The notes beneath the pieces were generated by a model. It saw only the letters and a list, made by a program, of their open reading frames with translations, did not search any database and had not been told where the DNA came from. Below, in pieces: positions 883 through 22,549 of a stretch of 64,000 bases of DNA; the first letter of the stretch is position 1; every line of letters begins with the position of its first letter. Location: assembly GCA_038997165.1 (NCBI GenBank), contig JAWBAK010000001.1, forward strand, positions 96,001 to 160,000, given 5' to 3'. The translations under genes and the position numbers were made by a program. Source of the DNA: Candidatus Aenigmatarchaeota archaeon (lineage in GTDB: Archaea; Aenigmatarchaeota; Aenigmatarchaeia; CG10238-14; SpSt-28).

Positions 883-887
883 TTATT

Positions 888-4025: not shown

Positions 4026-4409
4026 TTAACCTGGTATAAAATAATATTTCTTTTTACCTTCTCTTACACTTCTTACTTCACCACTTTCTTCCATTTCAAC
4101 CAAATATTCAGAGCATCTCGTTCTTGATAAGTTTAATAAATTTGCCAAATCTTGAGCAGTTAGTTTTCCATGTTTTTTTAGTAAAATTTTTATTAGTTCT
4201 TTTGTTTTTCTTGTTAAAGGAGTTCCAACGTCTTCAATTTTCATATTTCTTTTTATTATTGATATTTCTGCTTCTAAGCTCTTTATTTTTTCTTCTAATT
4301 CCAAAATTTTGTCATAAACTTTAGTTAAAAAATTATATAAATTATCAAGTTTCTGATTAATTATTCCAACAATCAATTGATTTTCATCTTTTTTTTGCTT
4401 AAAAATCAT
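4026..4409 (-). CDS. N-terminal coiled coil + C-terminal winged-helix-turn-helix DNA-binding protein
   Basis: LLKKHGKLTAQDLANLLNLSRTRCSEYLVEMEESGEVRSVREGKKKYYF is a typical wHTH with wing. Confidence 0.8.
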   Translation of the reverse strand: MIFKQKKDENQLIVGIINQKLDNLYNFLTKVYDKILELEEKIKSLEAEISIIKRNMKIEDVGTPLTRKTKELIKILLKKHGKLTAQDLANLLNLSRTRCSEYLVEMEESGEVRSVREGKKKYYFIPG

Positions 4410-4426
4410 AAATAAATTATCGAAGT

Positions 4427-4609
4427 TTATTTTAATTTCTTTAACATTGGTACACCATTTTTTGCCTCTATAACTATATATCCTGGAGGTATTGCTTCTA
4501 AAGCATCTATAGGATCTTTACTAAAATAAAAAATTAGATTTTTTCCTCTACCTATTTTCATATGTAAATACCAAATTTCCCCTTTTTTGTTTTTATATTT
4601 ATATGGCAT
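4427..4609 (-). CDS. Small basic hypothetical protein (60 aa)
   Basis: Protein-like composition (YKNKKGEIWYLH...FYFSKDP...PPGYIVIE...GVPMLKK); tightly packed in the minus-strand operon. Confidence 0.7.
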   Translation of the reverse strand: MPYKYKNKKGEIWYLHMKIGRGKNLIFYFSKDPIDALEAIPPGYIVIEAKNGVPMLKKLK

Positions 4610-4611
4610 AA

Positions 4612-6732
4612 TTAGCTAAACTTTCTTTTTATAAAAGTTTTACCTATAACTTTTTCGTTATTTTTTCTTTTTCTTGAAATGAATATAGATAATGTTATTA
4701 TAATGATAGATACTAAAATGGATATATAAGTATTGTTATCTAATATTAATACAAATTTTCCTGTTAGATAGTTATTTGATTTTAACTCTTTTTGATTAGT
4801 TATATAAAAAACAGGTATATCAAAATAAAATTCACTAATATTGTTTTTTAGCTTTAACTTTATAATTTCTGGATTAGATTTTCTAGTAAAATTAAAAAGT
4901 TTTATTTTTATAGATTCTCCAACCATAATTCTATCGATTTTTATTGTATCTACTTCGCAACCTTCAGAAAATAAATATATGTTTTCTAAATCTTTTTGAC
5001 CAGAATTTTTTATTTCTATAATTTTTTCATTTTCAAAATCAGAAAGTTCTATTGATGTATTTAATAAAGTTAATTCTATTTTTGCTTCTGTAACTATATT
5101 AATAGCTTCTCTAAAATTTACAAAAAAATCGCTTTCTGAAAAAAGTAATAAAGTATAGTTTCCTTCGATAGATGGTGAAGATAAAATTAATTCAAATCTA
5201 CCATTTTGAGTTTGTATAGTATAAACTCTTCCATTAAATGAAGCTTTAAAATTTATATCTTGAGGTTTACCTGTGCTATCTATAACTATTCCTCTTAATA
5301 GTATTTGCTCGTTTAAATAATATTTTGGTTTATTAAGTGAATATTGAATTTTTAAGCTTAATTTTTCAAAAATTCCAAAGTAACTTTTATCAAATATTTC
5401 AAATTCTATATAATTTGCTATTGTATTTTTAGTAAACAATCTAACTTCAAATTTTTTACAAGATTTATCTTTTAAAGAAATTTCTTTACAAAAAATTGGA
5501 TAAACCATTTCTTCGGAATCAATTTTTCTTTCATCGTAATATATCCTTGTAATTATTTTTTCAAATTCTAAATCTGTTTCGAAAACAAAAAAATCTAAAA
5601 TTTTTAAATTTTTTTCGTTAAGAGTTATAGGATAAAATCTTATTGAGTTATCAAAATATTTTAAATTAACGTTAATCATTCTTATTTCTGCGTTTTTATA
5701 TTTTATAGTTATATTTCTTTTTCCGGGTAAAAATAAAAATGTTTGATTTCCAGATAAAGAATATTGAAGATCATCTATTTTTAATGTTATAGTTATTGGA
5801 TTATTATCATAATCAAAAAAATTACAAACTCCAAGCTTTCCTATATTTACTGTTTTTTTAACATCTATCCAATGCATATTATATCTTACTCTAAATTTTA
5901 TTGTTGAAGCCTCTGCAGGCAAAGTTATATTAATACATATTCTATTATTACAATCAAAAAAGTTGTTTAACTTAGCATTTTCAACTTCAATACTTATGTT
6001 ATTTGAACTTAATTTATTTCCCTTAAATGAAACATCCATAGCAGCAACTACAGAACTTTCTGGATAATAAATTTTATCTTCTAAATCTACATTAGCTTGA
6101 AGAGGATTATTAATAACTAAATTTAAATTCTTAGAAAAAGTTCTAGAAAAATTTCTTAAAAAAATTGAAATCGTTTCTATTTTGTTTATCTCTTTCGATG
6201 GAACAAACTTCAAATAATAATAGTATCCAATTCTATCCAATTTAAAATTATCTGTAAAAGAGAATTTTATATCAAATTCTGAAGGATCCATAACTCTCGG
6301 CTTATTACTCCAACTCTCTTTTAAATTAAGAATAAACTTTATTGAAGTCTCTTCGTTTAAATAATTATTTGAAATTTCCAGTATATCAAAATTTAGTACA
6401 TGCAAGCTTATTCTTATGGTTTTTGATATATTAATATTTTGAATTTCATTAAAACAAATAGCTGTTACATTAAAATCTTGAGATAAATAATCTTCATATT
6501 TTAATGTTAATTGATTCTTAGGATTTATAAAAATTCTTTGCAAACCATTATCTATAGATATTACTATTTTATCTAAAATATAATCAGTAGGACAACTAAC
6601 ACTTATGTTAATATTATCACCTAAAAAAGCATCGGTAGGAAAAAAATCTATGTTTATAGATTCTTGAGAAAAAGTAAGCAATAAAAATAAAATTGAGATT
6701 AAAAAACTTTTTGTTATATAAAACTTAGCCAT
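4612..6732 (-). CDS. Secreted, C-terminally anchored multi-Ig-like cell-surface protein
   Basis: Signal peptide (LLLTFS|Q), beta-rich body, EIKNSGQKDLENI Ig/CARDB-like motif, C-terminal TM followed by RKRK. Confidence 0.75.
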   Translation of the reverse strand: MAKFYITKSFLISILFLLLTFSQESINIDFFPTDAFLGDNINISVSCPTDYILDKIVISIDNGLQRIFINPKNQLTLKYEDYLSQDFNVTAICFNEIQNINISKTIRISLHVLNFDILEISNNYLNEETSIKFILNLKESWSNKPRVMDPSEFDIKFSFTDNFKLDRIGYYYYLKFVPSKEINKIETISIFLRNFSRTFSKNLNLVINNPLQANVDLEDKIYYPESSVVAAMDVSFKGNKLSSNNISIEVENAKLNNFFDCNNRICINITLPAEASTIKFRVRYNMHWIDVKKTVNIGKLGVCNFFDYDNNPITITLKIDDLQYSLSGNQTFLFLPGKRNITIKYKNAEIRMINVNLKYFDNSIRFYPITLNEKNLKILDFFVFETDLEFEKIITRIYYDERKIDSEEMVYPIFCKEISLKDKSCKKFEVRLFTKNTIANYIEFEIFDKSYFGIFEKLSLKIQYSLNKPKYYLNEQILLRGIVIDSTGKPQDINFKASFNGRVYTIQTQNGRFELILSSPSIEGNYTLLLFSESDFFVNFREAINIVTEAKIELTLLNTSIELSDFENEKIIEIKNSGQKDLENIYLFSEGCEVDTIKIDRIMVGESIKIKLFNFTRKSNPEIIKLKLKNNISEFYFDIPVFYITNQKELKSNNYLTGKFVLILDNNTYISILVSIIIITLSIFISRKRKNNEKVIGKTFIKRKFS

Positions 6733-7439
6733 TTTTTTAGAAATAAGAAGCTTGGTTTTTTATAAGGAATACCTAAAAAATTGCTAGCAAAACTTTTAAT
6801 TTCTATTGTAAATGAAGAATAAGGATTATAAAACACATAGGGTATTCCTTTGTTTAAACTCTCCTTTATTTTTGTATCTTCTGGTAAAACAGCTAAAATA
6901 GGTATTCCTGAAATATCAAAAATTTCGTTTGGACTAATTGATTTTTTTGTATATCTATTAACTATTATTCCAGTAATTTTTATATTTTCCTTTTCAAACT
7001 CTTTTATTATTCTCATTAAGGCATATATCGAAGTTGTTTCTGGTAAAGTTAGTAAAAATATTTCGTCACATATTTTCGCTATTTCCAAATTTTTTTCAGA
7101 TATTCCTGGTTCTGTATCTATAACTAAAAAATCAAAACTCCCTTCTAAATCATTTAATATGTTTATGTTCTTATAGTTTAGATTAGAATCTCCGGTTGGT
7201 AAAACTCTTAACCCAAAAGGGGTTAAATATATTGCATTATTTATCGGTATTTCAAAATTTAAAGCTCGCGAAAGATTTAAATTATAGTTTATTAGACCTA
7301 AGGAAATAGATAAAGAATTGTTAAGATCTGTATCTATTAATAATGGATTTTTTTCAAAACATAATAAAGAGCTTGCAAAATTTATTGCAAATGTTGTTTT
7401 TCCTACACCACCCTTAGCTGAAAAAATCCCTATTTTCAT
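6714..7439 (-). CDS. minD: MinD/ParA-family ATPase
   Basis: Deviant Walker A KGGVGKTT, LLIDTDL, DFLVIDTEPG, GIIVNR, LPED..IKES; C-terminal amphipathic FLFLKKWLSFI. Confidence 0.9.
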   Translation of the reverse strand: MKIGIFSAKGGVGKTTFAINFASSLLCFEKNPLLIDTDLNNSLSISLGLINYNLNLSRALNFEIPINNAIYLTPFGLRVLPTGDSNLNYKNINILNDLEGSFDFLVIDTEPGISEKNLEIAKICDEIFLLTLPETTSIYALMRIIKEFEKENIKITGIIVNRYTKKSISPNEIFDISGIPILAVLPEDTKIKESLNKGIPYVFYNPYSSFTIEIKSFASNFLGIPYKKPSFLFLKKWLSFI

Positions 7440-7468
7440 AAAAAAATAAAATAAAGGAAAAAATATTA

Positions 7469-8386
7469 TTATACTGAAGCCACTATGAAGAGCTTTCCGC
7501 TTACTGTGCCCATTGGAACTCCATATGGAATTCTTACTTGAACTCTAAAATTCACAAACTCTGCTGGATTTAACTGAGTTGATCTTAAATAATTTGTTGG
7601 AAGATTTACTTTATCAGTAATATTATAATCCCAATATCCAAAATATGCTTCTGTTCCATCGGAATTTATGACAAAATATCCTTCTAACATATTATTATTT
7701 CCTATTGTATGAGCTACATAACCATATTCGTTAACTGCTGTTAAAGATTTTTCGTCATATTGGCTTGCGTCAGAAAAGCTTAAAATACCTGAAGAAGTTG
7801 CTGTTTTTGGAGATTTGGCAAATCTTACTTTAACATCTGATGTATTGAATTTTTTATTACTATCAGAAATTGCTAGAATAAACCAATCCTCTCCTTCATT
7901 TGTCACAACTTTTGCTGTTCTAAATAAGAAAAGTTTACATTTTGTGGAATCAAAATTATCGTTATTCATACATTCTGCTGGAAATGTCATGTATTTTGGT
8001 GGGTTATCTATTGAGAATAATCTCTGAGCTACATATTTAATATTTGATGATTCATCCTCTACCAAAACGAATTCTCCGCTTTTATGTAAGTTTGGATTGT
8101 TACTTCCCCATGGGTTTTGTGATGGCAACTCAACACTGATTTTTATGTTACTTATTGGTACGCTACCTAAGTTATAAATTGTTATGTAAGCAGAATTTGG
8201 ATTTGCTATATCTCCTGGCATACCCGAGAAACTTATTGCATCTGGAGTTACATCTATTATTACGGCTTGCTGTACTGTAACATCTACAATTACCTCGCTA
8301 GGATAGTCTTCAGAAAAAGAAACATAAAAACCTATTACTATAAAAGCTACTAGTATTGCTAGTATTACATTGCTTTTTTCTTTCAT
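7469..8386 (-). CDS. Secreted beta-sandwich protein, candidate major fibre or S-layer-type subunit
   Basis: Signal peptide, N-terminal alternating strand EVIVDVTVQQAVIIDVTP, C-terminal VRIPYGVPMGTVSGKLFIVAS, no C-terminal anchor. Confidence 0.7.
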   Translation of the reverse strand: MKEKSNVILAILVAFIVIGFYVSFSEDYPSEVIVDVTVQQAVIIDVTPDAISFSGMPGDIANPNSAYITIYNLGSVPISNIKISVELPSQNPWGSNNPNLHKSGEFVLVEDESSNIKYVAQRLFSIDNPPKYMTFPAECMNNDNFDSTKCKLFLFRTAKVVTNEGEDWFILAISDSNKKFNTSDVKVRFAKSPKTATSSGILSFSDASQYDEKSLTAVNEYGYVAHTIGNNNMLEGYFVINSDGTEAYFGYWDYNITDKVNLPTNYLRSTQLNPAEFVNFRVQVRIPYGVPMGTVSGKLFIVASV

Positions 8387-8410
8387 AATAAATATTAATG
8401 TTAAAAATTG

Positions 8411-8426
8411 ATATATATACTTTTCG
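8411..8426 (-). promoter_or_regulatory. BRE + TATA box of a probably leaderless promoter for 7469..8386
   Basis: Minus strand reads CGAAAAG-TATATATA about 26-33 nt upstream of the ATG at 8386. Confidence 0.6.
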
Positions 8427-8466
8427 CTTGCCCTTCCTATAAATTTTGATAGTTTTGAAATTTATT

Positions 8467-9318
8467 ATGAAGTCTTATATAGCTATGCTATTGACTCTAT
8501 TTTTTGCCATTTTTTATATTTCTTTCTCTCAAGTTGGTATAATGTTGTCGAGTGGAAACATAACATTAACAAATTATGAAACTTTTAGTAGCTTGAGAAT
8601 CTATGGAAGTAATAAAAGTTATATTGAAATAACACATAGAGAGGCCAATATACTTGATGTCTTATCAAACTTTAAAGGAATTATACAAAATTTCTCTGAA
8701 CAAAAAGATTGCATTAAAATAGAGTTATATAATAATTTTGTTAAAATAGAAAGTTCAAATGATAAAATTTCGTTTATAGATATTCCATTTGTTATAAAAA
8801 GATGTAAAGAAGCAGAGCCTGGATATAGAATTTTTTATATAAGTGCTAGAGAAATAAAAGATATAAAAGGAGAAAAAGATTATTCTGTAGCGATAATACC
8901 ATCTGTAGAAATACCTATATTAATGTTAGTTGAAGGTAATGCAATAAGAAAGATTAGTATATTAGATTTGAATGTGATATATGAAGAAAAACCTAAAATA
9001 AGCGTGTTGGTTAGAAATGACGGAACTGTAACTACTTCATTTAAAACTACTCTTAATATCTCTAATTATTCCTTTAGCTCGTTTGGTATATTAAAACCAA
9101 AAGAGGTTTCTATTATAAAATTTCCAATAAGTCTTGTTGGAAAATATAATGTTACTGCTAAAGTCGATTATTATAGCGATTTTTCCTTAGAAGAAAAGGA
9201 ATTAGAAATTAAAGAGTTTTATATTAGTTTTGAAGAGATTTTTGTTAACGTCTTGCCATATGTAATAGTTATTGCATCTGTTATAATTGCTATTATTTTA
9301 GTTTTAAAAAGGGTATGA
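8467..9318 (+). CDS. Secreted two-Ig-like-domain protein with C-terminal TM (chaperone/assembly-factor-like)
   Basis: Likely ATG 8467; signal peptide YISFS|Q; AEPGYRIFYI and SVLVRNDGTV motifs; C-terminal TM + KR. Confidence 0.7.
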   Translation: MKSYIAMLLTLFFAIFYISFSQVGIMLSSGNITLTNYETFSSLRIYGSNKSYIEITHREANILDVLSNFKGIIQNFSEQKDCIKIELYNNFVKIESSNDKISFIDIPFVIKRCKEAEPGYRIFYISAREIKDIKGEKDYSVAIIPSVEIPILMLVEGNAIRKISILDLNVIYEEKPKISVLVRNDGTVTTSFKTTLNISNYSFSSFGILKPKEVSIIKFPISLVGKYNVTAKVDYYSDFSLEEKELEIKEFYISFEEIFVNVLPYVIVIASVIIAIILVLKRV

Positions 9319-11663: not shown

Positions 11664-11725
11664 TATAAAATATCTCGTTTAAAAAAGAAATAATTAAATA
11701 TAATATTAAACAATAATATTTAATA

Positions 11726-14700: not shown

Positions 14701-17700
14701 TGAAATTAGAAACAAATATCTAAGAATAAATAAAGGAATTTCTTCAGCTCAGCTAATTATATATCCAGAGTCTCCAATAACATATGGAACAGAAACTACT
14801 GCAATATGTATAGCTACAAATCCAGAAGCTGAAGCAAAATTATGGAGAAATGGAACAGATGTTACTAGTGAAAACGGAACAGCTATAATATTGCCGGCAG
14901 GAATTTGGTATTATGAATGTAATGTTACAGAAACACAAAATTACACAAGTGCCTCTGATTCTAAAATATATATAGTTAATAAAGCGTTTGTTGAAGTGAA
15001 ACTGTTTTTAAATGGAACAGAAGAAGATAGAGTTTATACTTATGGAGATTTTGCAAACATAACTGCAACTATTAATGTTTCTGATAAAGTTATTTATATA
15101 GAGGCTAATTTTAGCGGATATCCGGAAATTATAGCATATGGAAAAGATGTTGTTACTATAATAACTAATAATTTTGGTGCTGGTATCTATAATATAACTG
15201 CTTATTTTTCTGGGGATCAAAATTATACAAGTAGTTTTAAGAGTTTATTGATGATAGTGAATAAAAAACCAACAAACATATATCTGTGGATAAATGGAAC
15301 AAGAGAAAATAAGGTTTATTATGATAATGCAACAATTAATTTTACTGTTGAATTGCTAGAAAATAACGATATAGTTCGGTTATTAAGTAACTATAGCGAT
15401 GGTAATTATAAAATTATTTCAAGTGGAGTTTCTCCGTTAATAACTATTCTTAACTTAGATGTTGGGGGTATATTTAATTTTACAGGTTATTATCCTGGAA
15501 ACCTTAACTATACTGAAAGTTCTGAAAGTTGGATAGTAACCATAGGAAAAATGAATGTAAATGTAGAGATTTTACCAGCACAAAAAATAGGAATAAACGA
15601 TGTTTTTAATATAAAGGGAGTTTGTAGTTGTATGTATGTGAATTGTAGTAATGTTAATGTTGAGTTGTTAGTAGACAATGAAAGAATTTCAAACGAATCA
15701 TTATCTTTACAATTAGTAGATGGGGATAATCCATATTATTTGGAAGGAAGTTTTGATTACATAGAAGTTTTTTGGAATGTTTCAGCAAATATAATAGGGA
15801 ATTATTCTATAAAGGTTAAGTGTAACTCCTCTGAATTTTATGATAAGTTTTCTGAAGAAAAAACTATAGAAATTATAGATAATAAAGCACCTAAGTGGTT
15901 TTTAAACAGAAGCTTTCCTGAGATAGCTTATTATTCTCCGAATGCTAATTATAGATTTAGCATTGTTTGGATAGATGAAAGCGAAATAGAAGAAGTTTTA
16001 ATAGAGCATAACTTTACTTCCATAGTTAAAAACGATAGTATGATAAAAAATGGTAATGAATTCTATTTTGAAATATATGATTTGCCAGCGGGAACTTATT
16101 ATTGGAAAAGCTATGCTAAGGATATATATGGAAATTGGAATGTTAGCCACGATTTTATTTACGTTGTAAATAAAGCGCCTGTTGAAATAAAAATATATTT
16201 TAATGGAAGTGAAGAGCAAAATGTTTTTGATGTTTATGATATAATAAACGTTACAGCTATAATAAATGTAAGCAATAAAATAATTTATTTGAATTCGAAT
16301 CTTCCAAATTGGGATATAGTTGAAAATAATACAATAATAGATATTTTAGTTAACCTTAATAAAAAAGGTAAGTTTATATTTAGCTCATATTTCTTGGGAG
16401 ATCAAAATTATTCCTCGTATTATATCGAAAAAGAAATTGAAGTAGTTGATAGAATTCCGCCAAAAATTGTTTTTATTGGACAAAATAGAAGTTGGATTGG
16501 AGTAGGAGAAAGTTTGCTTATTTTTGGTAAATGGGATGACAACTATGATTTAGATTACGCTTGGTTGGAAACTAATGAAAATGGTTCTTGGGAAAATGTC
16601 TCTTATGTTAAATTGAATTTAGAAGATAATTTAATTTGGTCCAATTTTACTTGGAGAAATCCAGAAGTAATCGCTGGTAGTTGGATTAGTTGGAGAATAT
16701 GTGCTAATGATACATCTAATAATATAAAGTGTTCTCAAATATATAGTTTTTTTGTTAATGCGAGTAAGCTATGGAACATTACTTTGAATGAAAGAATTTT
16801 TTCTTCTCCTTCAATAGGAGATGTTAATGGAGATGGAGAAATTAATGTTGTTATTGCAAGTTTTAATGGAACATTATACGCTATAAGAGCTGTTAATGGA
16901 GAAATTCTTTGGATAATCAACTTACCTGGAAGAATTGTTGGAAGTCCCTCTCTTTCGCAGCTAGAAAATGAAAATTATTTGAGAATTTTCATTGGTAGTT
17001 ATGATTATAATTTATATGCTATAAATGGTAGTGATGGAAGTAAAATATGGAATTTTTCTGCTAGTGGAAGAATTGTCTCTTCAGCAGCTATAGGAGATGT
17101 TAATGGAGATAATGTTATAGATATAGTTTTTGGTTCGGAAGATGGAAAGGTCTATTGCATAGATATTCTTAATGGAAATTTAATATGGAGTTTTCAAACT
17201 AATGGAAGAATAGTTTCTTCGCCATCAATAAAGAAAATTGGAGATGAAACATATGTTTTCATTGGCAGTTATGATTATAATTTATATGCTATAAATGGTA
17301 GTGATGGAAGTAAAATATGGAATTTTTCTGCTAAGGATAAAATTGAAAGTACTCCATTAATAGATGATTTCGATAATGACGGAAAATATGAAGTTGTTTT
17401 TGGATCTTATGATAGAAATGTTTATGTTTTAGATGCTCAAACAGGAAATTTGCTATGGAACTATACAACCAATAATTGGATAACTTCTTCTCCAATAACT
17501 TTAAGAGTTGGAAATGATAAAAAAATTATAATTACGTCACATGATTCGAAGGTTTACTCTTTTAATCCAGATGGCACAATTAACTGGACTTTTACAATTC
17601 CTACAGGTGGAAGGGTTCCATATTTACCTTCTGCTTTCGATGCAAATAAAGACGGTATTCAAGATGTTATAGTTGGTGCTACAGACGGAAGAATTTATGT

Positions 17701-19354
17701 AATTAATGGATTAAATGGAACTCTAATTTGGTTTTATAATATTGGAAACTACATTTATACTTCTCCCGCAATTGCAGATCTAAATAGAGATGGAAAATTA
17801 GATGTTTCTTTTGGAGGCTTAGATAGAAATGTATATGCACTAGATCCTCCATCTTGGAATATGTTTGGTGGAAACGAAAGAAGTACAAGAATTTATGATA
17901 TCGTTCCGCCAAAGCTTATTCATTATGAAAAAGAAATAGATGGTTGTAATATTAATATTGTTTCTAAATGGAAAGATTTATCTAATCTTGAATTTGCAGA
18001 AGTATTTATAGAGAGTGAAAATTTAAAAGAAAAGTACAAAATTAAATTATTTGGCCCAGAAGATTGGGTTAATATTACATTTAAATCTTGCAATAATTCT
18101 ATTGTAAATATAAAAGTCTTGGATGAATATGGAAATGTAGAAAAGCTAGAAGATTATATAGAGATTAAAGTTTACGATAATAAACCAAAAATAATAGAAG
18201 TTAAAACTATTCCAAACACAAGTTTTTATAACAAAAATCAAGTTTATGAGATATTGGCAAAAATAGAAGATGATTATGAAATTTCGAATGTTTTGATTGA
18301 AAATGATTTTAAAGGTTATTTATCTAACGAAAGTATGTATTTAGAAAACAATTATTTTGTTTATCACATTTCTAGCTTGGAAGCCAATACTTATAAATTT
18401 AGGATACATGCATGTGATTTATCAAATAATTGCGAAAGTTCTGAATGGAATGAAATAATAATTCTTAAAGCTCCTCAAAATGTTACGCTTAAATTAGATA
18501 AAGAAACTTACAAATATGGAGAGTTTATTAAAATTAATTGCACAGCCGCTAAAGACGAAATTTCAAAAATAAAAATACTTATAAACGACAGTTTAATAAA
18601 AGAAGAAATAAGTAATGAAATAAACATCTCATTAAAGTTGCAGAGTGGTTATTGGAAAATTAAATGCATTGCAGAAGAATCTAAAAATTATTTAGAAGGT
18701 TTTGATGAAAAAACAATTGTAGTTGAAAAAAGAATTCCAAAAACTAAGCTAAAAATTAATTATAATGAAAGTGATGTAGTATTAGAATGTCCGGCTAAAA
18801 TAAGAATTGATGCATATTCTTTAGAAGAAGATGAGGATGTCGAATATTATTTATTCCTATCTTCAGAAGAATACAATGAATTTTTAGGTTATGGAAAAAA
18901 TATAAGCTTAGAATTAATTTTTGAAAATGCGAGAAACTTTAAAGTTATATATAACAATAGCGGGGGAAAAAATATTTTTTCACATCAAATAGTTAGAAAT
19001 GTTTTTATTATCGATAATAAAAGTCCTAAAAATATATTTTATAAAAAAAGCCTTAATAGAGATGATTTAATTATTACTTCTAAATGGATGGATAATTGTA
19101 GTGAGATAGTAAGAGCTATAATTACTGAAAATAGCAATGGAAATAAAGAAATTGTAGTAAAACCTGTTAATGGTTGGGTTAACTATACAATATCTAGAAC
19201 AGATTTATTCTCTACATATGGATGTAAATGGATATTAGGAAGAATATGCATAAAGGAAGTAAGTTTTGAAATAAAGGTTTTTGATTCTTTCAATAATTTC
19301 GCTATTAAAAAAGATAAAGTTAAACTAATTTTTTTAAGTTCTAGAAAAATATAG
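11726..19354 (+). CDS. Giant secreted adhesin-like protein (2542 aa): four N-terminal Thr/Gly-rich repeats, Ig-like stalk repeats, FG-GAP/PQQ-like beta-propeller
   Basis: Signal peptide FFSFS|Q; repeated SSP.IGDVNGDG and GSYD.NLYAING.DG.KIW blades; NK..L...NG...AG.Y...ETQNYT stalk repeats; many N-x-S/T sequons. Confidence 0.85.
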   Translation: MELKEIVLVFLVFLTFFSFFSFSQIETQRFNQSESSVIIGSASTLNQAVIDSLLNIDSDGLTWNIAKSQVPHRKIKTVEYFIYQDMTQMAANTEKSGSFTVYIPEKNPIIRSAIIEIRNLIYNAQITAGQTVILSNGTTNITLLITQAGPAATGENMYYTFLINATDALRNFISGSGTYTFTLYVKLNAIRQGENAKLILTYEYDSDSPREIKTIRFFVGQINSTLAVGSSTNFTIPPLNLPEKNVIIRDAFFETYIHLQPGGTVDQGISIDLDGVNAISGTPIDNAGVTTIDYVFLYRNIFDTSTSHTFNFKPTAGYALHAVGTELVLTYEYDSDSELQLKTVRYLIGQDGGLYTTPHTATFSRTIIIPEDVKSIISAYNRVTFSIAYGTGAGTTTYTTTIGVNSSVSGESQPRVDYILGLRDEQVSHSMILYNATGLYSITNGTTIVCSVYSSAASTSYYTGSKGCELILTYVYNASNSTSFVNSVEYFVGSSYHLALASSINFPFSFVISEPNYLIRDAYLNVYGFTGSSTAATNTLVSYVDVPGYVSQTCNFRNTGEARSDFCWDYVGDNITVANSYTVVLSSSVTRWFASKLIVTYSYMPFYKVEVEHNASIFFEGLLRNISIMINFTSSTQSTFSMHIYDFKNNQWNSTICQNLLANPNQFYVYWCNISNSEVNNFVSNDNKVRVRFFSNEDFNQGVLMEEYVQFFVTYEFINYAPILFDNIEIPNSPTTYLKNRAYIFKVKVTDLNGENDIDSVIFEFNGINQTVNNYVTINSTTREYSIEIYDLAANPYGYIFRWYAKDKRNSWSNVVEGMYVINKAIPEINLELSNSIVDYPNETNATCYLILGDEENNLKLYRNNTLVNSNKDRVSEIAILGAGVYEYSCYYEETQNFTSYLVENFILTINKGIPKVFLEINGMQDDYITYYPEEINITAWMENLYEEGEIKLYKNGNLIFSGKRFSEVSVLAAGEYYFDLIFEETQNYTYYEIRNKYLRINKGISSAQLIIYPESPITYGTETTAICIATNPEAEAKLWRNGTDVTSENGTAIILPAGIWYYECNVTETQNYTSASDSKIYIVNKAFVEVKLFLNGTEEDRVYTYGDFANITATINVSDKVIYIEANFSGYPEIIAYGKDVVTIITNNFGAGIYNITAYFSGDQNYTSSFKSLLMIVNKKPTNIYLWINGTRENKVYYDNATINFTVELLENNDIVRLLSNYSDGNYKIISSGVSPLITILNLDVGGIFNFTGYYPGNLNYTESSESWIVTIGKMNVNVEILPAQKIGINDVFNIKGVCSCMYVNCSNVNVELLVDNERISNESLSLQLVDGDNPYYLEGSFDYIEVFWNVSANIIGNYSIKVKCNSSEFYDKFSEEKTIEIIDNKAPKWFLNRSFPEIAYYSPNANYRFSIVWIDESEIEEVLIEHNFTSIVKNDSMIKNGNEFYFEIYDLPAGTYYWKSYAKDIYGNWNVSHDFIYVVNKAPVEIKIYFNGSEEQNVFDVYDIINVTAIINVSNKIIYLNSNLPNWDIVENNTIIDILVNLNKKGKFIFSSYFLGDQNYSSYYIEKEIEVVDRIPPKIVFIGQNRSWIGVGESLLIFGKWDDNYDLDYAWLETNENGSWENVSYVKLNLEDNLIWSNFTWRNPEVIAGSWISWRICANDTSNNIKCSQIYSFFVNASKLWNITLNERIFSSPSIGDVNGDGEINVVIASFNGTLYAIRAVNGEILWIINLPGRIVGSPSLSQLENENYLRIFIGSYDYNLYAINGSDGSKIWNFSASGRIVSSAAIGDVNGDNVIDIVFGSEDGKVYCIDILNGNLIWSFQTNGRIVSSPSIKKIGDETYVFIGSYDYNLYAINGSDGSKIWNFSAKDKIESTPLIDDFDNDGKYEVVFGSYDRNVYVLDAQTGNLLWNYTTNNWITSSPITLRVGNDKKIIITSHDSKVYSFNPDGTINWTFTIPTGGRVPYLPSAFDANKDGIQDVIVGATDGRIYVINGLNGTLIWFYNIGNYIYTSPAIADLNRDGKLDVSFGGLDRNVYALDPPSWNMFGGNERSTRIYDIVPPKLIHYEKEIDGCNINIVSKWKDLSNLEFAEVFIESENLKEKYKIKLFGPEDWVNITFKSCNNSIVNIKVLDEYGNVEKLEDYIEIKVYDNKPKIIEVKTIPNTSFYNKNQVYEILAKIEDDYEISNVLIENDFKGYLSNESMYLENNYFVYHISSLEANTYKFRIHACDLSNNCESSEWNEIIILKAPQNVTLKLDKETYKYGEFIKINCTAAKDEISKIKILINDSLIKEEISNEINISLKLQSGYWKIKCIAEESKNYLEGFDEKTIVVEKRIPKTKLKINYNESDVVLECPAKIRIDAYSLEEDEDVEYYLFLSSEEYNEFLGYGKNISLELIFENARNFKVIYNNSGGKNIFSHQIVRNVFIIDNKSPKNIFYKKSLNRDDLIITSKWMDNCSEIVRAIITENSNGNKEIVVKPVNGWVNYTISRTDLFSTYGCKWILGRICIKEVSFEIKVFDSFNNFAIKKDKVKLIFLSSRKI
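16986..17333 (+). repeat. 78-bp near-identical repeat (16986-17063 and 17256-17333) in the propeller blades
   Basis: FIGSYDYNLYAINGSDGSKIWNFSA twice; offset 270 bp; one mismatch seen. Confidence 0.9.
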
Positions 19355-19357
19355 GTT

Positions 19358-19879
19358 ATGAAAAAGAGTTATTTAGTAGCACTAATTATTTTAATTTTCT
19401 TTATCTTTTTATTTTTTAACTTTTTTATTATAGAAGAAGAAATAATATTATTTCCAAAATTTGGTAAAGATAGTGATGGTAGTTTAAGCGATGAAATAGT
19501 TGAAAATATTAAAAAAGGTTATGAAAGAGTAATTCTAAAATTTTATCCATATGGTTTTTTAGAGGTTTGGGGTTGGGAAAATCAGTTTTTTGTTAAAAAA
19601 ATTTTTGCAGTAGTAGAATGGAGAGCCGATGAAGATTTAGGAGCTGGAAATATATTTATTGGTTATTCGTTAGATGGAAAAAATTACTATGAAATTGGCC
19701 CATTCAATGCATCTAATAATTATACGAAAACAATAATAGAAATTCCTATTAAAACATTCTCTAACATAGAAAATATAAAGATTAGGTTTAGAGGAGAGGA
19801 TTTGGATTATGCAATAGATGCATATGCAGAAGTTAAAATTTATCTAAAAGTTATAAGGTATAAATTTAGATTATATTAA
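19358..19879 (+). CDS. Membrane-tethered single jelly-roll-like domain, homologous to the repeat in the next gene
   Basis: Shares DSDG, YP.G.L, GAGNI.I.YS.DG.N and RFRGEDLD motifs with 19879..21948. Confidence 0.8.
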   Translation: MKKSYLVALIILIFFIFLFFNFFIIEEEIILFPKFGKDSDGSLSDEIVENIKKGYERVILKFYPYGFLEVWGWENQFFVKKIFAVVEWRADEDLGAGNIFIGYSLDGKNYYEIGPFNASNNYTKTIIEIPIKTFSNIENIKIRFRGEDLDYAIDAYAEVKIYLKVIRYKFRLY

Positions 19880-21948
19880 TGAGAAAGTTATATAATTCGC
19901 TTTTTTTCTTTTTTATCGTAGTTATTATAGCAAATATTATACACTCTCCATTATCTGAATTCTTTCCTATGAATTGTATTGATAGTGATGGAGATTGTAA
20001 TGCAGAAAGAATAAAGTATTTAGATAATGAATATGAAACGATTGATTTATTGTATTATCCTTTTGGATATTTAATTGCTAGGGATTTTGAAATAGAAATA
20101 CCAGACGAAAACGAAATAGATTATGTAAATATTAGTGTTTTCTGGTATACTGATGTAGGTGAAGGTGCTGGAAATATCTATATAGAATATTCTTTTGATG
20201 GAACAAATTGGTATTATTGTTCTGGACCATATAGTGAAAGTTCTGAAATAGTTCATTCTTATTGTAGCTTAAGCTCAATATCTAAGGAACAATTGCAAAA
20301 TCTAATGGTTAGGTTTAGAGGAGAGGATTTAGATGGATTTCCAATGGCATTTGCTTATATAGATCAAATAAGCCTATATGTACATCATTCTTCTGCTCCA
20401 AAATTAAGAAATCAAACTACAAATACTACAAATGATTTTATTTACTTTGATCAAGCAATTGAGCTATCTATAGAAGTATTTAGCGATAATGGAATTTCTT
20501 GTGTATGGTTATCTACGAACGAGAGCGGTAATTGGATTAATTATACCGACGGAACATATAATTCTCCAATATGTTTAGATGGTATTTCAAATACTTGGGT
20601 AAAGGTTAACTTTACTTGGAAAAATTCCTCTGCGATAGGATATGTTGGATGGAAAATTTATGTAAATGACACACTTGGAAAAATAAACGTAAGTGATGAA
20701 AAAACTTTTTTTGTTCAATATAGAGTTTTTCCTATGAATTGTATTGATAGTGATGGAGATTGTAATGTAGAAAGAATAAAGTATTTAGATAATGAATATG
20801 AAATGATTGATTTATTGTATTATCCTTTTGGATATTTAATTGCTAGGGATTTTGAAATAAATTTAAAGGGAAACATTCTTATAAGAGATGCTAGTATTCA
20901 TGTTTTCTGGTATACTGATGTAGGTGAAGGTGCTGGAAATATTTATATAGAATATTCTTTTGATGGAACAAATTGGTATTATTGTTCTGGACCATATAGT
21001 GAAAGTTCTGAAATAGTTCATTCTTATTGTAGCTTAAGCTCAATATCTAAGGAACAATTGCAAAATCTAATGGTTAGGTTTAGAGGAGAGGATTTAGATG
21101 GATTTCCGATGGCATTTGCTTATATAGATCAAATTTTTGTATCATTTAATTTTTCATACGTTTATTCTTATCTAGAAGTTATTTTAACTTCTCCAAAAAC
21201 AAACGTAATAAATAATATATTCCAAAACTCTACATTTTTTGTTAATGTTTCGATTTTTTGTAGAAATGGAAATTGTACTGATGTAAAAGCTGTTATAAGA
21301 TATAATGAATCGTCTCCATATCCAAATACTCCAATTAATGAAACGTATGGAGCAAAGCCGTTTTTCATAGATGAAGAAAATCCTAATTCAATTAAATATT
21401 GTGGCAATATGAGTATGGATGAAAAATGCGATTTATATTGGATAATAAATGCTAGCGGAAACGTAAAAAGCATTTGGAAAATAGGTGTTTTAGTTTTTTC
21501 TTCCGATGGAATTTATAATCATACTGAAAACGCGACAATAAAAATTATAGGTTGCGTAATAGATGTTACTCTAACTTTTGATAAAATAAGTTTTGGTGAT
21601 GTTTTACCTAACGTTATTGGAAATCCTGCCGAAGGGAATAATAATGAAGAGTATAAAATAATAGTAAATCCAGGAAGTTGCTCAATAGATGCATATATTA
21701 AAGGTTATGATTTGTACAATGATACATACAATTCTAAAATTCCTGTACAAAATATAAAAGTTAGTAATCAAAGCAATGATTACAGCAGTTCATTTAGTTT
21801 GGATTATGAGTTTAAATTATTAATAAAAAGTTTAGCTCAAAATTCGATTAAGCCAATATTTTTTTGGTTAGATGTACCACCAGTTTTTGCTGGAATTTAC
21901 TATGGAACCATTACAATAAAAATAGTTGAAGAAGATGAATTGCCTTAA
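19879..21948 (+). CDS. Secreted protein with duplicated Cys-containing domain and C-terminal pilin/WxL-like beta-sandwich
   Basis: Two ~135-aa near-identical domains; C-terminus DVTLTFDKISFGDVLP...FWLDVPPVFAGIYYGTITIK; no TM anchor. Confidence 0.8.
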   Translation: MRKLYNSLFFFFIVVIIANIIHSPLSEFFPMNCIDSDGDCNAERIKYLDNEYETIDLLYYPFGYLIARDFEIEIPDENEIDYVNISVFWYTDVGEGAGNIYIEYSFDGTNWYYCSGPYSESSEIVHSYCSLSSISKEQLQNLMVRFRGEDLDGFPMAFAYIDQISLYVHHSSAPKLRNQTTNTTNDFIYFDQAIELSIEVFSDNGISCVWLSTNESGNWINYTDGTYNSPICLDGISNTWVKVNFTWKNSSAIGYVGWKIYVNDTLGKINVSDEKTFFVQYRVFPMNCIDSDGDCNVERIKYLDNEYEMIDLLYYPFGYLIARDFEINLKGNILIRDASIHVFWYTDVGEGAGNIYIEYSFDGTNWYYCSGPYSESSEIVHSYCSLSSISKEQLQNLMVRFRGEDLDGFPMAFAYIDQIFVSFNFSYVYSYLEVILTSPKTNVINNIFQNSTFFVNVSIFCRNGNCTDVKAVIRYNESSPYPNTPINETYGAKPFFIDEENPNSIKYCGNMSMDEKCDLYWIINASGNVKSIWKIGVLVFSSDGIYNHTENATIKIIGCVIDVTLTFDKISFGDVLPNVIGNPAEGNNNEEYKIIVNPGSCSIDAYIKGYDLYNDTYNSKIPVQNIKVSNQSNDYSSSFSLDYEFKLLIKSLAQNSIKPIFFWLDVPPVFAGIYYGTITIKIVEEDELP
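19963..21134 (+). repeat. 407-bp direct repeat (19963-20369 and 20728-21134) with a divergent 41-nt central block
   Basis: Offset 765 bp; four point differences seen outside the block 20095-20135 / 20860-20900. Confidence 0.92.
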
Positions 21949-22549
21949 TAAAAAATTGTTTTTTATAATATTTTCTATAATACTGGAGTTTAATATTATA
22001 TTTTCTCAAATTAATTTCGGAAGTTATCAATATGAAAAAATATTAGAAGTTAAAAACGAAACTCTATTAACTTCAAAAATTTTGATTTGGAATTCTGGTA
22101 AAAATGATATTGAAGTTGTTTTTGAAATAATTGAAAAACCGAAAAATGTTGAAGTGTATTTAGATAAAAAAGAGATTATATTAAGCTCTGAGCTAAAAAA
22201 CGATTACGAAATTTTAATAATAAATAATAGAGAGATAAAAGTGCTTCCAGTAAATGTATATTTTTACATTTTAAGTAAAGATGCTAGTGGATATGTTAAA
22301 ATAAGAGCTTACGCAAAAAGTTTAGAAAATGCAGAAATACCTATAAGACAAGAAAGAGAATTCCTATTTATAATAAATAAGGTTGAAGATAGTAAAAAAG
22401 AAAAAGTAGAAACCAAACTTACTGAAAAAATAATAGAAAGTGTATCGAATTCTATAAGGGAAAATCCTACAAATATTTTGCCAGTAATAATAATAGTAAT
22501 TTCTGTTTTAGCTTCGTTAATAATACTTAAAAGAAAAAATTCTGAATGA
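21935..22549 (+). CDS. Secreted Ig-like protein with C-terminal TM
   Basis: Likely ATG 21935; signal peptide IIFS|Q; IWNSGKNDIEV motif; tail NILP-TM-LKRK. Confidence 0.7.
   Translation: MNCLNKKLFFIIFSIILEFNIIFSQINFGSYQYEKILEVKNETLLTSKILIWNSGKNDIEVVFEIIEKPKNVEVYLDKKEIILSSELKNDYEILIINNREIKVLPVNVYFYILSKDASGYVKIRAYAKSLENAEIPIRQEREFLFIINKVEDSKKEKVETKLTEKIIESVSNSIRENPTNILPVIIIVISVLASLIILKRKNSE

What the first reader, a model, noticed from the sequence alone, without database searches (positions are those of the whole stretch)
4026..22549. Candidate undescribed attachment-filament locus: fibre subunit + MinD + Ig-like assembly factors + giant tip adhesin
Seen: ten secreted or anchored beta-rich proteins and one MinD/ParA ATPase are arranged around two divergent promoters. 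Three products share a fold signature of (I/L)xF near the start, an IxxxN strand and a terminal GxYxGxIxI-like strand: 7469 (VRIPYGVPMGTVSGKLFI), 9315 (GYYEGYIYI) and the tail of 19879 (WLDVPPVFAGIYYGTITI). Established: such terminal strands occur in WxL and Csu/spore-coat-U-type beta-sandwich subunits, whose loci carry membrane-anchored Ig-like partners. Inference: 7469 is the major subunit (consensus BRE/TATA, no anchor), 19879 and 11726 are minor or tip adhesins, the TM-anchored Ig proteins are chaperones or anchors, and MinD positions the structure. No class III signal peptides or PilB/TadC genes are in the cluster, so it would not be a type IV system. This is a plausible host-attachment organelle for a DPANN symbiont.
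Basis: partly seen in the sequence, partly recalled or inferred. Interest (0 to 1): 0.85.

Follow-up and report, generated by a model that had tools for sequence, protein, structure and literature searches.

The report
Archaeal strand-linked surface fibre gene cluster
A tiny symbiotic (DPANN) archaeon from hot springs carries a conserved set of unannotated genes that most likely builds a thin adhesive surface fibre whose subunits clip together by lending each other a beta-strand, which may be how such cells hold on to their hosts.

Summary
The gene set is real. Ten proteins have signal-like N-termini, four also have C-terminal membrane anchors, and one is a MinD-type ATPase. They lie around two divergent intergenic regions.

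It is a conserved system. Of 20 loci fetched around homologues of the 305-aa protein D (7469-8386), 13 also hold E, F, MinD and B.

D has no Pfam family. It folds with high confidence into a PapD/ASH-like Ig core. Three copies are predicted to join head to tail through an N-terminal VxVxV strand (ipSAE 0.73, best control 0.00).

The last 260 residues of K form a strongly conserved, sequon-rich module. It ends surface proteins of 270 to over 12,000 residues and co-occurs with D in 67 of 86 D-positive genomes. This is the layout of a tip adhesin.

The closest known systems are two 2026 preprints on donor-strand pili with membrane-tethered chaperones: Elr/WxL in Bacillota and Pam in CPR bacteria. 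No sequence membership was found.

The roles of E, F, G, L, B and MinD are inferred. Everything is in silico. This scan noted the same system before in four other genomes.

The parts
4026..4409 (-). A: 127-aa coiled-coil + winged-helix protein, candidate regulator
   Evidence: TrmB PF01978 6e-7 and HTH_24 1.8e-6. Homologues at E<=1e-60 only in the two same-genus loci L031 and L032, next to B; weak hits (4e-04, 2e-04) in L034 and L045.
4427..4609 (-). 60-aa ORF between A and B, function unknown
   Evidence: Listed and read. Not analysed further.
4612..6732 (-). B: 706-aa type-I membrane protein. Signal-like N-terminus, long beta-rich ectodomain, TM at 667-688, basic 18-aa cytoplasmic tail. Always next to MinD.
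   Evidence: No Pfam family. TM scan. Adjacent to MinD and on the same strand in 13 of 20 loci. Shares modules with H, L, E and G. B-like modules occur in two giant proteins of this genome, one with a MinD paralogue directly downstream and one with a MinD paralogue about 2.6 kb away. Tails described.
6714..7439 (-). C: MinD/ParA-type ATPase. Overlaps the start of B by 19 nt.
   Evidence: CbiA 1.1e-16 and minD_arch 1.5e-38, the latter below its cut-off. Walker A KGGVGKT and an amphipathic C-terminus KKPSFLFLKKWLSFI.
7469..8386 (-). D: 305-aa secreted subunit, candidate major fibre subunit. Signal peptide about 1-25, donor-like strand 32-39 (V34, V36, V38), Ig core with a large insertion, C-terminal RIPYGVPMGTVSGKLFI strand.
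   Evidence: AF2 pLDDT 93.6. Trimer prediction 0.73 against 0.00 for the best control. Family of 201 representatives with no Pfam family. Found in 86 of 371 phylum genomes.
8387..8466 (.). Divergent D/E intergenic region with TATA-like elements on both strands
   Evidence: Sequence read. AAAAGTATATATA at 8412-8424 on the minus strand. TATAAAT lies about 22-29 nt before the ATG at 8467.
8446..9318 (+). E: about 283-290 aa (likely start ATG 8467). Two Ig-like regions plus a C-terminal TM. Candidate membrane-tethered chaperone or assembly factor.
   Evidence: TM at 264-290. 60 unannotated homologues; the three with a source name are labelled archaeal. Sub-threshold Pfam hits: BsuPI in 17 of 60 and WxLIP_HBD in 6 of 60. 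A DUF916/DUF3324 cluster scores 0.90 in the Atlas. Next to F in 13 of 20 loci.
9315..9833 (+). F: 172-aa protein with an N-terminal anchor or signal, one PapD/ASH-like Ig domain and an aromatic amphipathic C-terminus
   Evidence: LNFGIIP and GNYTGxIxI are conserved. Weak PG_0320-like_C hit at E 0.0076. C-termini listed.
9803..10471 (+). G: 222-aa paralogue of E with an alternating-hydrophobic strand (KIVVNVL) directly after the signal peptide. Candidate base or terminator subunit.
   Evidence: hhalign E-G 99.9% and D-G 57%. An N-terminal strand of this type is seen in all 14 family members listed. A hydrophobic C-terminal stretch followed by basic residues, which I read by eye as a TM helix (no TM scan run on these), is in 6 of them.
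10437..11663 (-). H: 408-aa protein with Ig-like domains, a coiled coil and a C-terminal TM. Accessory anchor.
   Evidence: TM at 357-387. Homologous to B. By the direct phmmer search, present in 5 of 20 loci: L031, L032, L036, L049 and, as a B-family gene that also hits the H profile, L033.
11726..19354 (+). I: 2542-aa secreted giant protein with Ig-like stalk repeats and a PQQ/FG-GAP beta-propeller at about 1680-2040. Lacks the Kc module.
   Evidence: PF13570 3.7e-66. Its stalk modules are shared with Kc-bearing giant proteins in other genomes. No Kc hit.
19358..19879 (+). J: 173-aa secreted protein made of one copy of a roughly 125-aa domain that occurs twice in K
   Evidence: blastp of J against K: residues 29-152 and 283-407, E about 1e-19.
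19879..21948 (+). K: 689-aa secreted adhesin-like protein. Two J-type domains, one Ig domain and the Kc module.
21166..21945 (+). Kc: conserved 260-aa C-terminal module of K. Two Ig-like domains with about 12 conserved N-glycosylation sequons. Candidate fibre-attachment module.
   Evidence: AF2 pLDDT 95.0. It ends ORFs of 270 to 12,864 aa; 137 of 371 genomes match, 93 of them strongly. Co-occurs with D in 67 of 86 D-positive genomes. Sequons counted.
21926..22549 (+). L: 207-aa Ig-like protein with a C-terminal TM. It follows the Kc-bearing gene.
   Evidence: TM at 181-204. L follows the K-like gene in L031, L047 and L049 as well as in the window.

Best explanation
The cluster encodes a Sec-dependent, non-type-IV surface fibre assembled by donor-strand exchange.

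Proposed mechanism:
- D is exported and its signal peptide is cut at about residue 25.
- The freed N-terminal strand (residues 32-39, with V34, V36 and V38 pointing inward) inserts against the first strand (about 44-57) and the C-terminal RIPYGVPxG strand (282-305) of the preceding subunit. This gives an open-ended head-to-tail polymer.
- Variable adhesins such as K are joined through the invariant C-terminal Kc module. This resembles two-domain tip adhesins of chaperone-usher, Elr/WxL and Pam pili.
- The membrane-tethered Ig proteins E (and F) hold subunits at the membrane before exchange.
- G carries its own N-terminal alternating strand and, in about half of its relatives, what reads as a TM helix. 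It caps the base and tethers the fibre.
- L and H are further anchors.
- The MinD-type ATPase C, translationally coupled to B, acts from the cytoplasm on B's basic tail to place or cluster the apparatus.
- A is a local regulator.

Shown here in silico: the gene set and its conservation, the fold of D and of Kc, and the predicted D-D interface.

Inferred: every role of E, F, G, H, L, B and C, the tip position of K, and host attachment.
For: 1. Conserved gene set. Of 20 loci that I chose from the best D matches on long contigs, 13 hold E, F, MinD and a 700-850-aa B beside D, and 12 of those 13 also hold G. D genes often come as 2-4 tandem paralogues.

2. D is a family of its own. It has 201 representatives at E<=1e-3 among 1.84 billion proteins and no Pfam family.

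4. D self-association. Three copies of D(26-305) score ipSAE 0.73 (median of 3 runs) against 0.00 for the best of 3 controls. The runs share at least 72% of contacts and the partner pLDDT is at least 88. In the tool's calibration the mark was reached by 20 of 30 solved homo-pairs and by 1 of 23 proteins solved as single chains. Those counts hold only roughly here, because I used my own alignment and three copies. The interface is asymmetric: residues 26-41 of one copy lie against 42-57 and 282-305 of the next, and V34, V36 and V38 are among the lowest-error contacts.

5. Conservation at the interface. V34, V36 and V38 are invariant in the close family and are the consensus of 87 sequences. Nine of the 15 near-invariant residues fall in the 87-residue interface out of 280 residues (Fisher p=0.017).

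6. The Kc module. It is the conserved C-terminal end of ORFs from 270 to 12,864 aa. Across genomes: D and Kc together 67, D only 19, Kc only 26, neither 259, out of 371. These genomes are related and many are incomplete, so no p-value is quoted.

7. G. All 14 listed family members carry an alternating hydrophobic strand right after the signal peptide, and 6 of the 14 end in a hydrophobic stretch plus basic residues that I read by eye as a TM helix.

8. Experimental precedent for this logic in envelopes without an outer membrane: ElrD/ElrE and Pam pili.
Against: - There is no experimental or expression evidence.
- The complex score is a model's own confidence.
- In the monomer model residues 31-43 are already placed with pLDDT about 94, so the strand could stay with its own subunit.
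- Seven of the 20 loci lack E, F and an adjacent MinD-B pair. Neighbours tested in six of them (L038, L042, L044, L045, L046, L048) show no similarity to E, F, G, L, B or Kc (hhalign probability at most 2.5%). The seventh, L033, has only D, B and an H-like gene. So D can sit in other contexts.
- D was detected in only 86 of 371 phylum genomes.
- E's similarity to the WxLIP chaperone is weak and non-specific. BsuPI hits (17 of 60) outnumber WxLIP_HBD hits (6 of 60).
- D, F and Kc are not significantly alike.
- I lacks Kc.
- Cluster-linked MinDs do not form one resolved clade.
Confidence: 0.55

Rival explanations
1. This is an adhesin-display complex that is not a long fibre. Giant and mid-sized adhesins (K-type) dock through Kc onto membrane-anchored Ig proteins (L, E, G, H, B). 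D forms only short oligomers, an adaptor, or a surface lattice around them. The function would be surface display in the style of the original Csc/WxL 'cell-surface complex' idea.
For: L directly follows the Kc-bearing gene in the window and in L031, L047 and L049. Kc is more widespread and far better conserved than D: 137 against 86 of 371 genomes, and 26 genomes have strong Kc without detectable D. Five paralogous TM-anchored Ig proteins are more than a simple pilus would seem to need.
Against: The predicted D-D contact is head to tail and open-ended rather than closed or symmetric. The D profile came from only 4 close sequences, so Kc-only genomes may simply hold divergent D. Tandem D paralogues resemble major and minor pilin sets.
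Confidence: 0.22
2. MinD and B form a separate module that places large surface proteins in general, or acts in division or segregation. On this reading it sits next to the D/E/F/G genes only by linkage and is not part of fibre assembly.
For: The genome has five MinD-like genes. B-like modules also occur in a 1908-aa protein with a MinD paralogue directly downstream and in a 3109-aa protein with a MinD paralogue about 2.6 kb away. Cluster-linked MinDs do not form one clade.
Against: A MinD next to a 700-850-aa B lies beside E, F and D in 13 of 20 loci spanning several families of the phylum. C overlaps B by 19 nt.
Confidence: 0.15
3. The genes are an unrelated run of Ig-like surface proteins typical of DPANN genomes. 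The shared motifs are chance and the genes have no joint function.
For: Ig-like domains with hxFG / NxG / GxYxG motifs are very common. Similarity between D, F and Kc is not significant.
Against: Gene order is conserved across many genera. D and Kc co-occur strongly. Genes overlap or abut: C/B, E/F, F/G, J/K and K/L.
Confidence: 0.04
4. The proteins are accessory subunits of a type IV pilus or archaellum-like machine encoded elsewhere in the genome.
For: Five T2SSE-family ATPases and a weak prepilin-peptidase match exist elsewhere in the genome.
Against: None of them lies in the cluster; the nearest are about 45 kb away. In the D model the N-terminal helix is short (residues 6-17) with low confidence, and is followed by an extended segment rather than the long alpha-1 helix of type IV pilins. 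No T2SSE or T2SSF Pfam match falls in the cluster.
Confidence: 0.04

Closest known systems
Elr/WxL pilus of Enterococcus faecalis and other Bacillota (bioRxiv 10.64898/2026.10.17.759780; I read the abstract and sections 6, 8, 12 and 14)
   Same: In both there is no outer membrane or usher. [quoted passage not shown] A roughly 300-aa two-domain beta-sandwich partner is held by a C-terminal TM helix (ElrE, compared with E). The adhesins consist of a variable N-terminal payload plus an invariant C-terminal attachment module (WxL, compared with Kc). A small base subunit terminates assembly.
   Different: No WxL (PF13731) or WxLIP_HBD (PF11797) match in this genome at E<=1. The only WxLIP_PGBD match is in another gene. 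There is no LPxTG or sortase anchoring. D has a PapD/ASH-like core with a roughly 170-aa insertion. This cluster adds a MinD ATPase, B, and several extra anchored paralogues. The paper reports the Elr system only in Bacillota, among 4,698 genera screened.
Pam pili of CPR bacteria, Ca. Mycosynbacter amalyticus (PMC13278184; I read the abstract and passages found by term search)
   Same: Both belong to ultrasmall episymbionts. Both have Ig-like pilins joined by donor-strand exchange, two paralogous PapD-like chaperones that keep a C-terminal TM helix (PamC/D, compared with E/G), a terminator with an N-terminal strand plus a TM helix (PamR, compared with G or L), several pilin paralogues in one operon, and no transenvelope machine.
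   Different: Pam pilins donate a linker strand between two domains, whereas D donates its N-terminus. Pam pilins are reported as exclusive to CPR. No MinD is reported in the pam operon (0 occurrences of 'MinD' in its text).
Archaeal donor-strand filaments: threads (PMC9715654), bundling pili/ABP (PMC9245690), cannulae (10.1101/2024.12.30.630787) and tafi / DUF1102 clusters (PMC11821415)
   Same: These are archaeal, Sec- or Tat-exported, non-type-IV filaments built by strand donation. Tafi clusters also carry a small regulator, a two-domain tip protein and a TM-bearing terminator.
Chaperone-usher pili (Fim/Pap/Caf/Csu)
   Same: The mechanism proposed is the same. D's Ig core and the tandem Ig of Kc align with PapD-like chaperones, FimA/PapA, CfaB-CfaB and FimH.
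   Different: There is no usher, no outer membrane and no PapD_N or usher Pfam match. The organism is archaeal. The match scores are in the range of generic Ig similarity.

Membership tests
Elr/WxL pilus system | Pilin and tip adhesin carry a WxL domain (PF13731) | tested here: not met
   No PF13731 match in the whole genome at E<=1. None in the 12 cluster proteins at E<=0.1. The Atlas gives WxL clusters as near neighbours of D at only 0.77, which is a lead and not a match.
Elr/WxL pilus system | DUF916 (PF06030) + DUF3324 (PF11797) membrane-anchored chaperone | tested here: inconclusive
   PF11797 has no match in the genome at E<=1. PF06030 matches only a 9184-aa ORF outside the cluster. In the E family, 6 of 60 members give sub-threshold WxLIP_HBD hits (best 1.1e-4), but 17 of 60 hit BsuPI. 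A DUF916/DUF3324 cluster scores 0.90 for E in the Atlas. E's architecture (two Ig-like regions plus a C-terminal TM) fits.
Elr/WxL pilus system | [quoted passage not shown] | tested here: met
   By prediction only. D x3 scores 0.73 against 0.00 for the best control. Residues 26-41 lie against 42-57 and 282-305 of the next copy. The contact residues are conserved.
Elr/WxL pilus system | Tip adhesins consist of a variable payload plus an invariant C-terminal attachment module | tested here: met
   Kc ends ORFs of 270-12,864 aa. That Kc accepts D's strand was not tested.
Elr/WxL pilus system | LPxTG base subunit anchored by sortase | tested here: not met
   No LPxTG in any of the 10 exported proteins.
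Pam pili (CPR) | Homology to PamA/PamB pilins and PamC/PamD chaperones | not testable with these tools
The resemblance is one of architecture, taken from the paper's text.
TasA / ABP / cannula (TasA-like jelly-roll) filaments | TasA-like (Peptidase_M73) sequence family | tested here: not met
   No such Pfam hit for D or for 87 family members.
TasA / ABP / cannula (TasA-like jelly-roll) filaments | TasA-like jelly-roll fold | tested here: inconclusive
Tafi / DUF1102 fimbriae | DUF1102 subunits, DUF5305 (TafG) and a two-domain signal peptidase (TafD) in the cluster | tested here: not met
   No such Pfam matches among the cluster proteins. A DUF1102 cluster appears only as an Atlas neighbour of D at 0.75.
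Type IV pili / archaella | PilB/PilC-type ATPase and platform in the locus; class III signal peptide with a long N-terminal helix | tested here: not met
   No T2SSE or T2SSF hit in the cluster. The five T2SSE genes are elsewhere. In the D model the only N-terminal helix is residues 6-17, at low confidence.
Chaperone-usher pili | PapD_N/PapD_C chaperone and an outer-membrane usher | tested here: not met
   No Pfam match. Only fold-level likeness of the Ig domains.
MinD/ParA ATPases | Deviant Walker A KGGxGK[ST], MinD/ParA-type P-loop domain, C-terminal amphipathic helix | tested here: met
   KGGVGKT at residues 9-15 and C-terminus KKPSFLFLKKWLSFI. CbiA 61.3 bits, above the 25.4-bit cut-off. minD_arch 132.4 bits, below the 201.75-bit equivalog cut-off. 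It is therefore a superfamily member and not a confirmed cell-division MinD.

The most novel reading that the evidence does not exclude
This would be the archaeal counterpart of the membrane-tethered-chaperone donor-strand pili that were first described in 2026 in Bacillota and in CPR bacteria. It would be built from protein families that no database describes, and it would be wired to the cytoplasm, which is not reported for the other two. A dedicated MinD-type ATPase would act on the tail of the single-pass protein B and decide where, or how many, fibres are made. That would be the first donor-strand pilus under the control of a cytoplasmic ATPase, and a candidate for the host-attachment organelle of DPANN episymbionts.
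Probability: 0.22. Interest if true: 0.85.

Novelty: new variant of a known kind. Interest (0 to 1): 0.7.

Why it matters
How DPANN archaea hold on to their hosts is largely unknown, and most of their surface genes are unannotated. This cluster offers a concrete parts list to test:
- a subunit with a predicted donor strand;
- an invariant attachment module carried by adhesins of up to thousands of residues;
- tethered Ig-like assembly factors;
- a MinD ATPase.

If confirmed, chaperone-type donor-strand pili would extend to the Archaea. Together with the Pam pili of CPR bacteria, it would suggest that ultrasmall episymbionts of both domains arrived at the same outer-membrane-free way of building adhesive fibres. 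It would also link such a fibre to a cytoplasmic positioning ATPase for the first time.

My literature searches found no paper on an archaeal or DPANN system of this kind. 'DPANN' with 'donor strand' returned 2 papers and neither concerns it. 'WxL', 'archaea' and 'pilus' returned 11 papers; by the 10 listed titles none is archaeal. 'DPANN', 'MinD', 'surface protein' and 'gene cluster' listed nothing relevant.

Tried and rejected
- Sequence searches of the PDB with D profiles (A1, A2) and E profiles (A5, A7) gave nothing meaningful: best E-values 0.15, 0.33, 0.24 and 0.007, the last to unrelated ETV6 fusions.
- Foldseek of D against the PDB gave no match at E<=1e-3.
- hhalign of D against F and Kc was not significant.
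- I looked for E/F/G/L/B/Kc-like neighbours in six D loci of a second context (L038, L042, L044, L045, L046, L048). All probabilities were at most 2.5%, with single sequences as queries, which limits sensitivity.
- A tree of 24 MinD sequences tested whether cluster-linked copies form one clade. They fall into two supported groups on an unresolved backbone, plus a third group of MinDs downstream of B. No conclusion was drawn.
- Expression: no RNA holder was listed among 21 runs. The DNA was found in hot-spring metagenome runs.
- The Atlas structure search was not possible, because no model is held for D or E.
- The VIA search of Kc was filled by domain 1 (residues 1-130), so domain 2 was not tested on its own.
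- The weak NCBIfam rows for F (Stx2f, E 0.055), L (MazF, E 0.088) and others are noise, far below their cut-offs.
- S-layer reading: H resembles a stalk protein in outline (Ig domains, coiled coil, TM; the comparison with SlaB is recalled and not tested). H is present in only 5 of the 20 loci and D is patchy in the phylum, so I did not pursue it.

Full report
WHAT IS THERE

The window is G000:C1:96001-160000 of a 652-kb, 4-contig genome. Its completeness is 94.5% and its G+C about 24%. The closest named relatives of its proteins are labelled Candidatus Aenigmatarchaeota. The DNA recurs in hot-spring metagenome runs.

Between 4026 and 22549 lie these genes:

| Gene | Coordinates | Strand | Size |
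|---|---|---|---|
| A | 4026-4409 | - | 127 aa, winged helix |
| unnamed ORF | 4427-4609 | - | 60 aa |
| B | 4612-6732 | - | 706 aa |
| C | 6714-7439 | - | MinD/ParA |
| D | 7469-8386 | - | 305 aa |
| E | 8446-9318 | + | likely starts at 8467 |
| F | 9315-9833 | + | 172 aa |
| G | 9803-10471 | + | 222 aa |
| H | 10437-11663 | - | 408 aa |
| I | 11726-19354 | + | 2542 aa |
| J | 19358-19879 | + | 173 aa |
| K | 19879-21948 | + | 689 aa |
| L | 21926-22549 | + | 207 aa |

All ten of B and D-L have an N-terminal hydrophobic segment. B, E, H and L also have a C-terminal TM segment.

Pfam finds nothing for B, D, E, G, H, J or K at E<=0.1. It finds only a beta-propeller in I and MinD/ParA families in C. 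NCBIfam adds minD_arch for C, below its cut-off.

A BRE/TATA-like element lies 26-38 nt before D's start. That pattern, which I defined after seeing it, is found 4 times in the window against 1.3 expected.

IS IT A SYSTEM?

A profile of D and three close homologues finds matches in 86 of 371 genomes of the phylum. That is 28 of the 98 high-quality genomes and 44 of 170 genera. The matches are often 2-4 tandem genes of about 300 aa. An exhaustive HMMER search finds 201 representatives at E<=1e-3.

I fetched 20-kb stretches around 20 of the best matches. I chose these for score and contig length, so they are not a random sample. I then assigned their ORFs to families built by iterated searches.
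- Thirteen of the 20 loci hold E, F, a MinD and a 700-850-aa B next to D. G is present in 12 of those 13.
- MinD and B are adjacent and co-directional in all 13.
- Two of the 13 are from the same genus as the window.
- L033 has only D, B and an H-like gene.
- The other six loci have D pairs among unrelated neighbours.

THE K TAIL

Residues 430-689 of K (Kc) are the conserved C-terminal end of proteins of very different length in the syntenic loci: 640, 1236, 1771, 1880 and 2378 aa. In one locus it is a stand-alone 290-aa secreted protein.

Across the phylum, 137 of 371 genomes match at E<=1e-5. Of these, 93 match nearly full-length at E<=1e-40. The module ends open frames of 270 to 12,864 aa.

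D and strong Kc co-occur in 67 genomes. There are 19 genomes with D only, 26 with Kc only, and 259 with neither. The genomes are related and incomplete, so the count is descriptive.

Kc has about 12 N-glycosylation sequons conserved in at least 60% of 31 sequences. Five of them are in all 31.

I lacks Kc, although its stalk repeats recur in Kc-bearing giant proteins elsewhere.

J is one copy of a domain that is present twice in K.

D ITSELF

With an 87-sequence alignment, AlphaFold2 gives pLDDT 93.6. Foldseek finds no solved structure at E<=1e-3. Its highest-probability rows are the TasA fibre (0.41) and the CanA cannula (0.38).

- TasA and cannula subunits, at rmsd near 8.

DOES D POLYMERISE?

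Three copies of D(26-305) were folded with controls.
- The median ipSAE was 0.73, and the best of three controls scored 0.00.
- The runs agree in at least 72% of contacts, and the partner pLDDT is at least 88.
- The tool's calibration: 20 of 30 solved homo-pairs reach the mark, and 1 of 23 single-chain proteins does. This holds only roughly here, because I used my own alignment and three copies.

The interface is head to tail. Residues 26-41, 67-77 and 271-279 of one copy meet 42-57, 93-107 and 282-305 of the next. V34, V36 and V38 are among the lowest-error contacts, touching residues 53, 57, 61, 103 and 284-295.

These three valines are invariant in the close family and are the VxVxV consensus of 87 sequences. 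Nine of the 15 near-invariant residues lie in the interface, which covers 87 of 280 residues (p=0.017).

An alternating hydrophobic N-terminal strand packed against the last strand of the neighbour is the geometry of donor-strand complementation. This is a prediction and not a measurement.

THE OTHER PROTEINS

hhalign shows that E, G, H, B and L share modules: E-G 99.9%, E-H 99.9%, H-B 100%, E-L 95% and L-B 90%. The H and G alignments had drifted to include relatives, so the first three values are partly circular. In contrast, D-F is 26%, D-G 57%, D-Kc 18% and F-Kc 1.7%.

They are the hxFG...NxG...GxYxGxhxh pattern of PapD/ASH-like Ig domains in general.

E has 60 homologues, none annotated; the three that carry a source name are labelled archaeal. 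Sub-threshold Pfam hits go to BsuPI (17 of 60) and WxLIP_HBD (6 of 60, best 1.1e-4). The language-model Atlas lists a DUF916/DUF3324 cluster at 0.90.

All 14 G-family members that I listed carry an alternating hydrophobic strand directly after the signal peptide. Six of the 14 end in a hydrophobic stretch followed by basic residues, which I read by eye as a TM helix; no TM scan was run on them.

B tails are basic. In most relatives they contain a short amphipathic stretch.

The genome has five MinD-like genes. One lies directly downstream of, and another about 2.6 kb from, a giant protein with a B-like module.

COMPARISON WITH WHAT IS KNOWN

In Enterococcus:
- The WxL protein ElrD polymerises through an N-terminal donor strand.
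- ElrE, a DUF916/DUF3324 protein with a C-terminal TM helix, is the chaperone.
- The tip adhesins consist of a variable payload on an invariant C-terminal WxL module.
- An LPxTG protein terminates assembly.
- The system was found only in Bacillota.

A second preprint describes Pam pili of a CPR episymbiont. These have Ig-like donor-strand pilins, two PapD-like chaperones that keep a TM helix, and a TM-anchored terminator with an N-terminal strand.

The present cluster has the same logic part for part. It fails sequence membership: there is no WxL or WxLIP_HBD match in the genome at E<=1 and no LPxTG. It also adds MinD and B.

Archaeal donor-strand filaments (threads, bundling pili, cannulae, tafi) share the principle, but neither the families nor the gene sets.

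It is not a type IV system. No T2SSE or T2SSF match falls in the cluster. The five T2SSE genes are elsewhere in the genome, and D has no long N-terminal helix.

VERDICT

The most likely reading (about 0.55) is a donor-strand fibre of D. It would carry Kc-type adhesins, be assembled and tethered by membrane-anchored Ig proteins, and have a MinD-B module acting from the cytoplasm.

The main rival (about 0.2) is an adhesin-display complex in which D is only an adaptor or short oligomer.

All evidence is computational, and no RNA data were available.

The scan had already noted the same kind of cluster in four other genomes. I did not test those notes.

My searches found no paper on an archaeal or DPANN version.

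Noticed in passing
window 19358-21948: J (173 aa) is a single copy of a roughly 125-aa secreted domain that occurs twice in K (residues 29-152 and 283-407; about 34% identity to J). The domain has no Pfam family. I, J, K and L abut or overlap like one operon.
   Followed up: partly
G000:C1:86840-93607 (just upstream of the window) and G000:C1:406100-418754: Two further giant surface proteins (1908 and 3109 aa) have B-like modules. The first has a MinD paralogue directly downstream; the second has one about 2.6 kb away. The 1908-aa protein ends in a cytoplasmic GIISxETYEELKKKYEEKL tail. The genome has five MinD-like genes in 652 kb.
   Followed up: partly
window 4612-6732 (C-terminus of B) and B homologues in L031-L050: After the TM helix, B tails carry a basic cluster. 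In most relatives this is followed by a short amphipathic stretch (for example IKNFLFDIKNFI, IKNSLLDIKEFL, MISGIKKEIM and, in this genome, VIGKTFIKRKF). This is a candidate docking peptide for the adjacent MinD. It was seen by eye only.
   Followed up: no
window 271-4025: The 203-aa protein (271-882) and the 1045-aa all-coiled-coil protein (888-4025) upstream of A are conserved next to the cluster in the two same-genus genomes. The 203-aa protein also has a homologue beside a D locus of another family (L040, 5e-24).
   Followed up: no
window 4427-4609 (-): A 60-aa ORF lies between A and B on the same strand.
   Followed up: no
G295:C1:101632-102396 and other rows: The Kc module ends open frames of up to 12,864 aa, and several of 3,000-5,000 aa. 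The module therefore appears to be a general C-terminal ending of the giant surface proteins of this phylum.
   Followed up: no
L038, L042, L044, L045, L046, L048: A second context for D-family gene pairs: they are flanked by runs of 300-435-aa ORFs that show no similarity to E, F, G, L, B or Kc. In G357 and G366, Kc-bearing giant genes still lie within about 10-20 kb. This may be a variant system.
   Followed up: partly
window 7469-8386 compared with alignment A2: Three N-glycosylation sequons are conserved in 69-85% of the D family (columns of residues 77, 84 and 125) but absent from this genome's D, which has only 2 sequons. K has 21 and I has 84.
   Followed up: no
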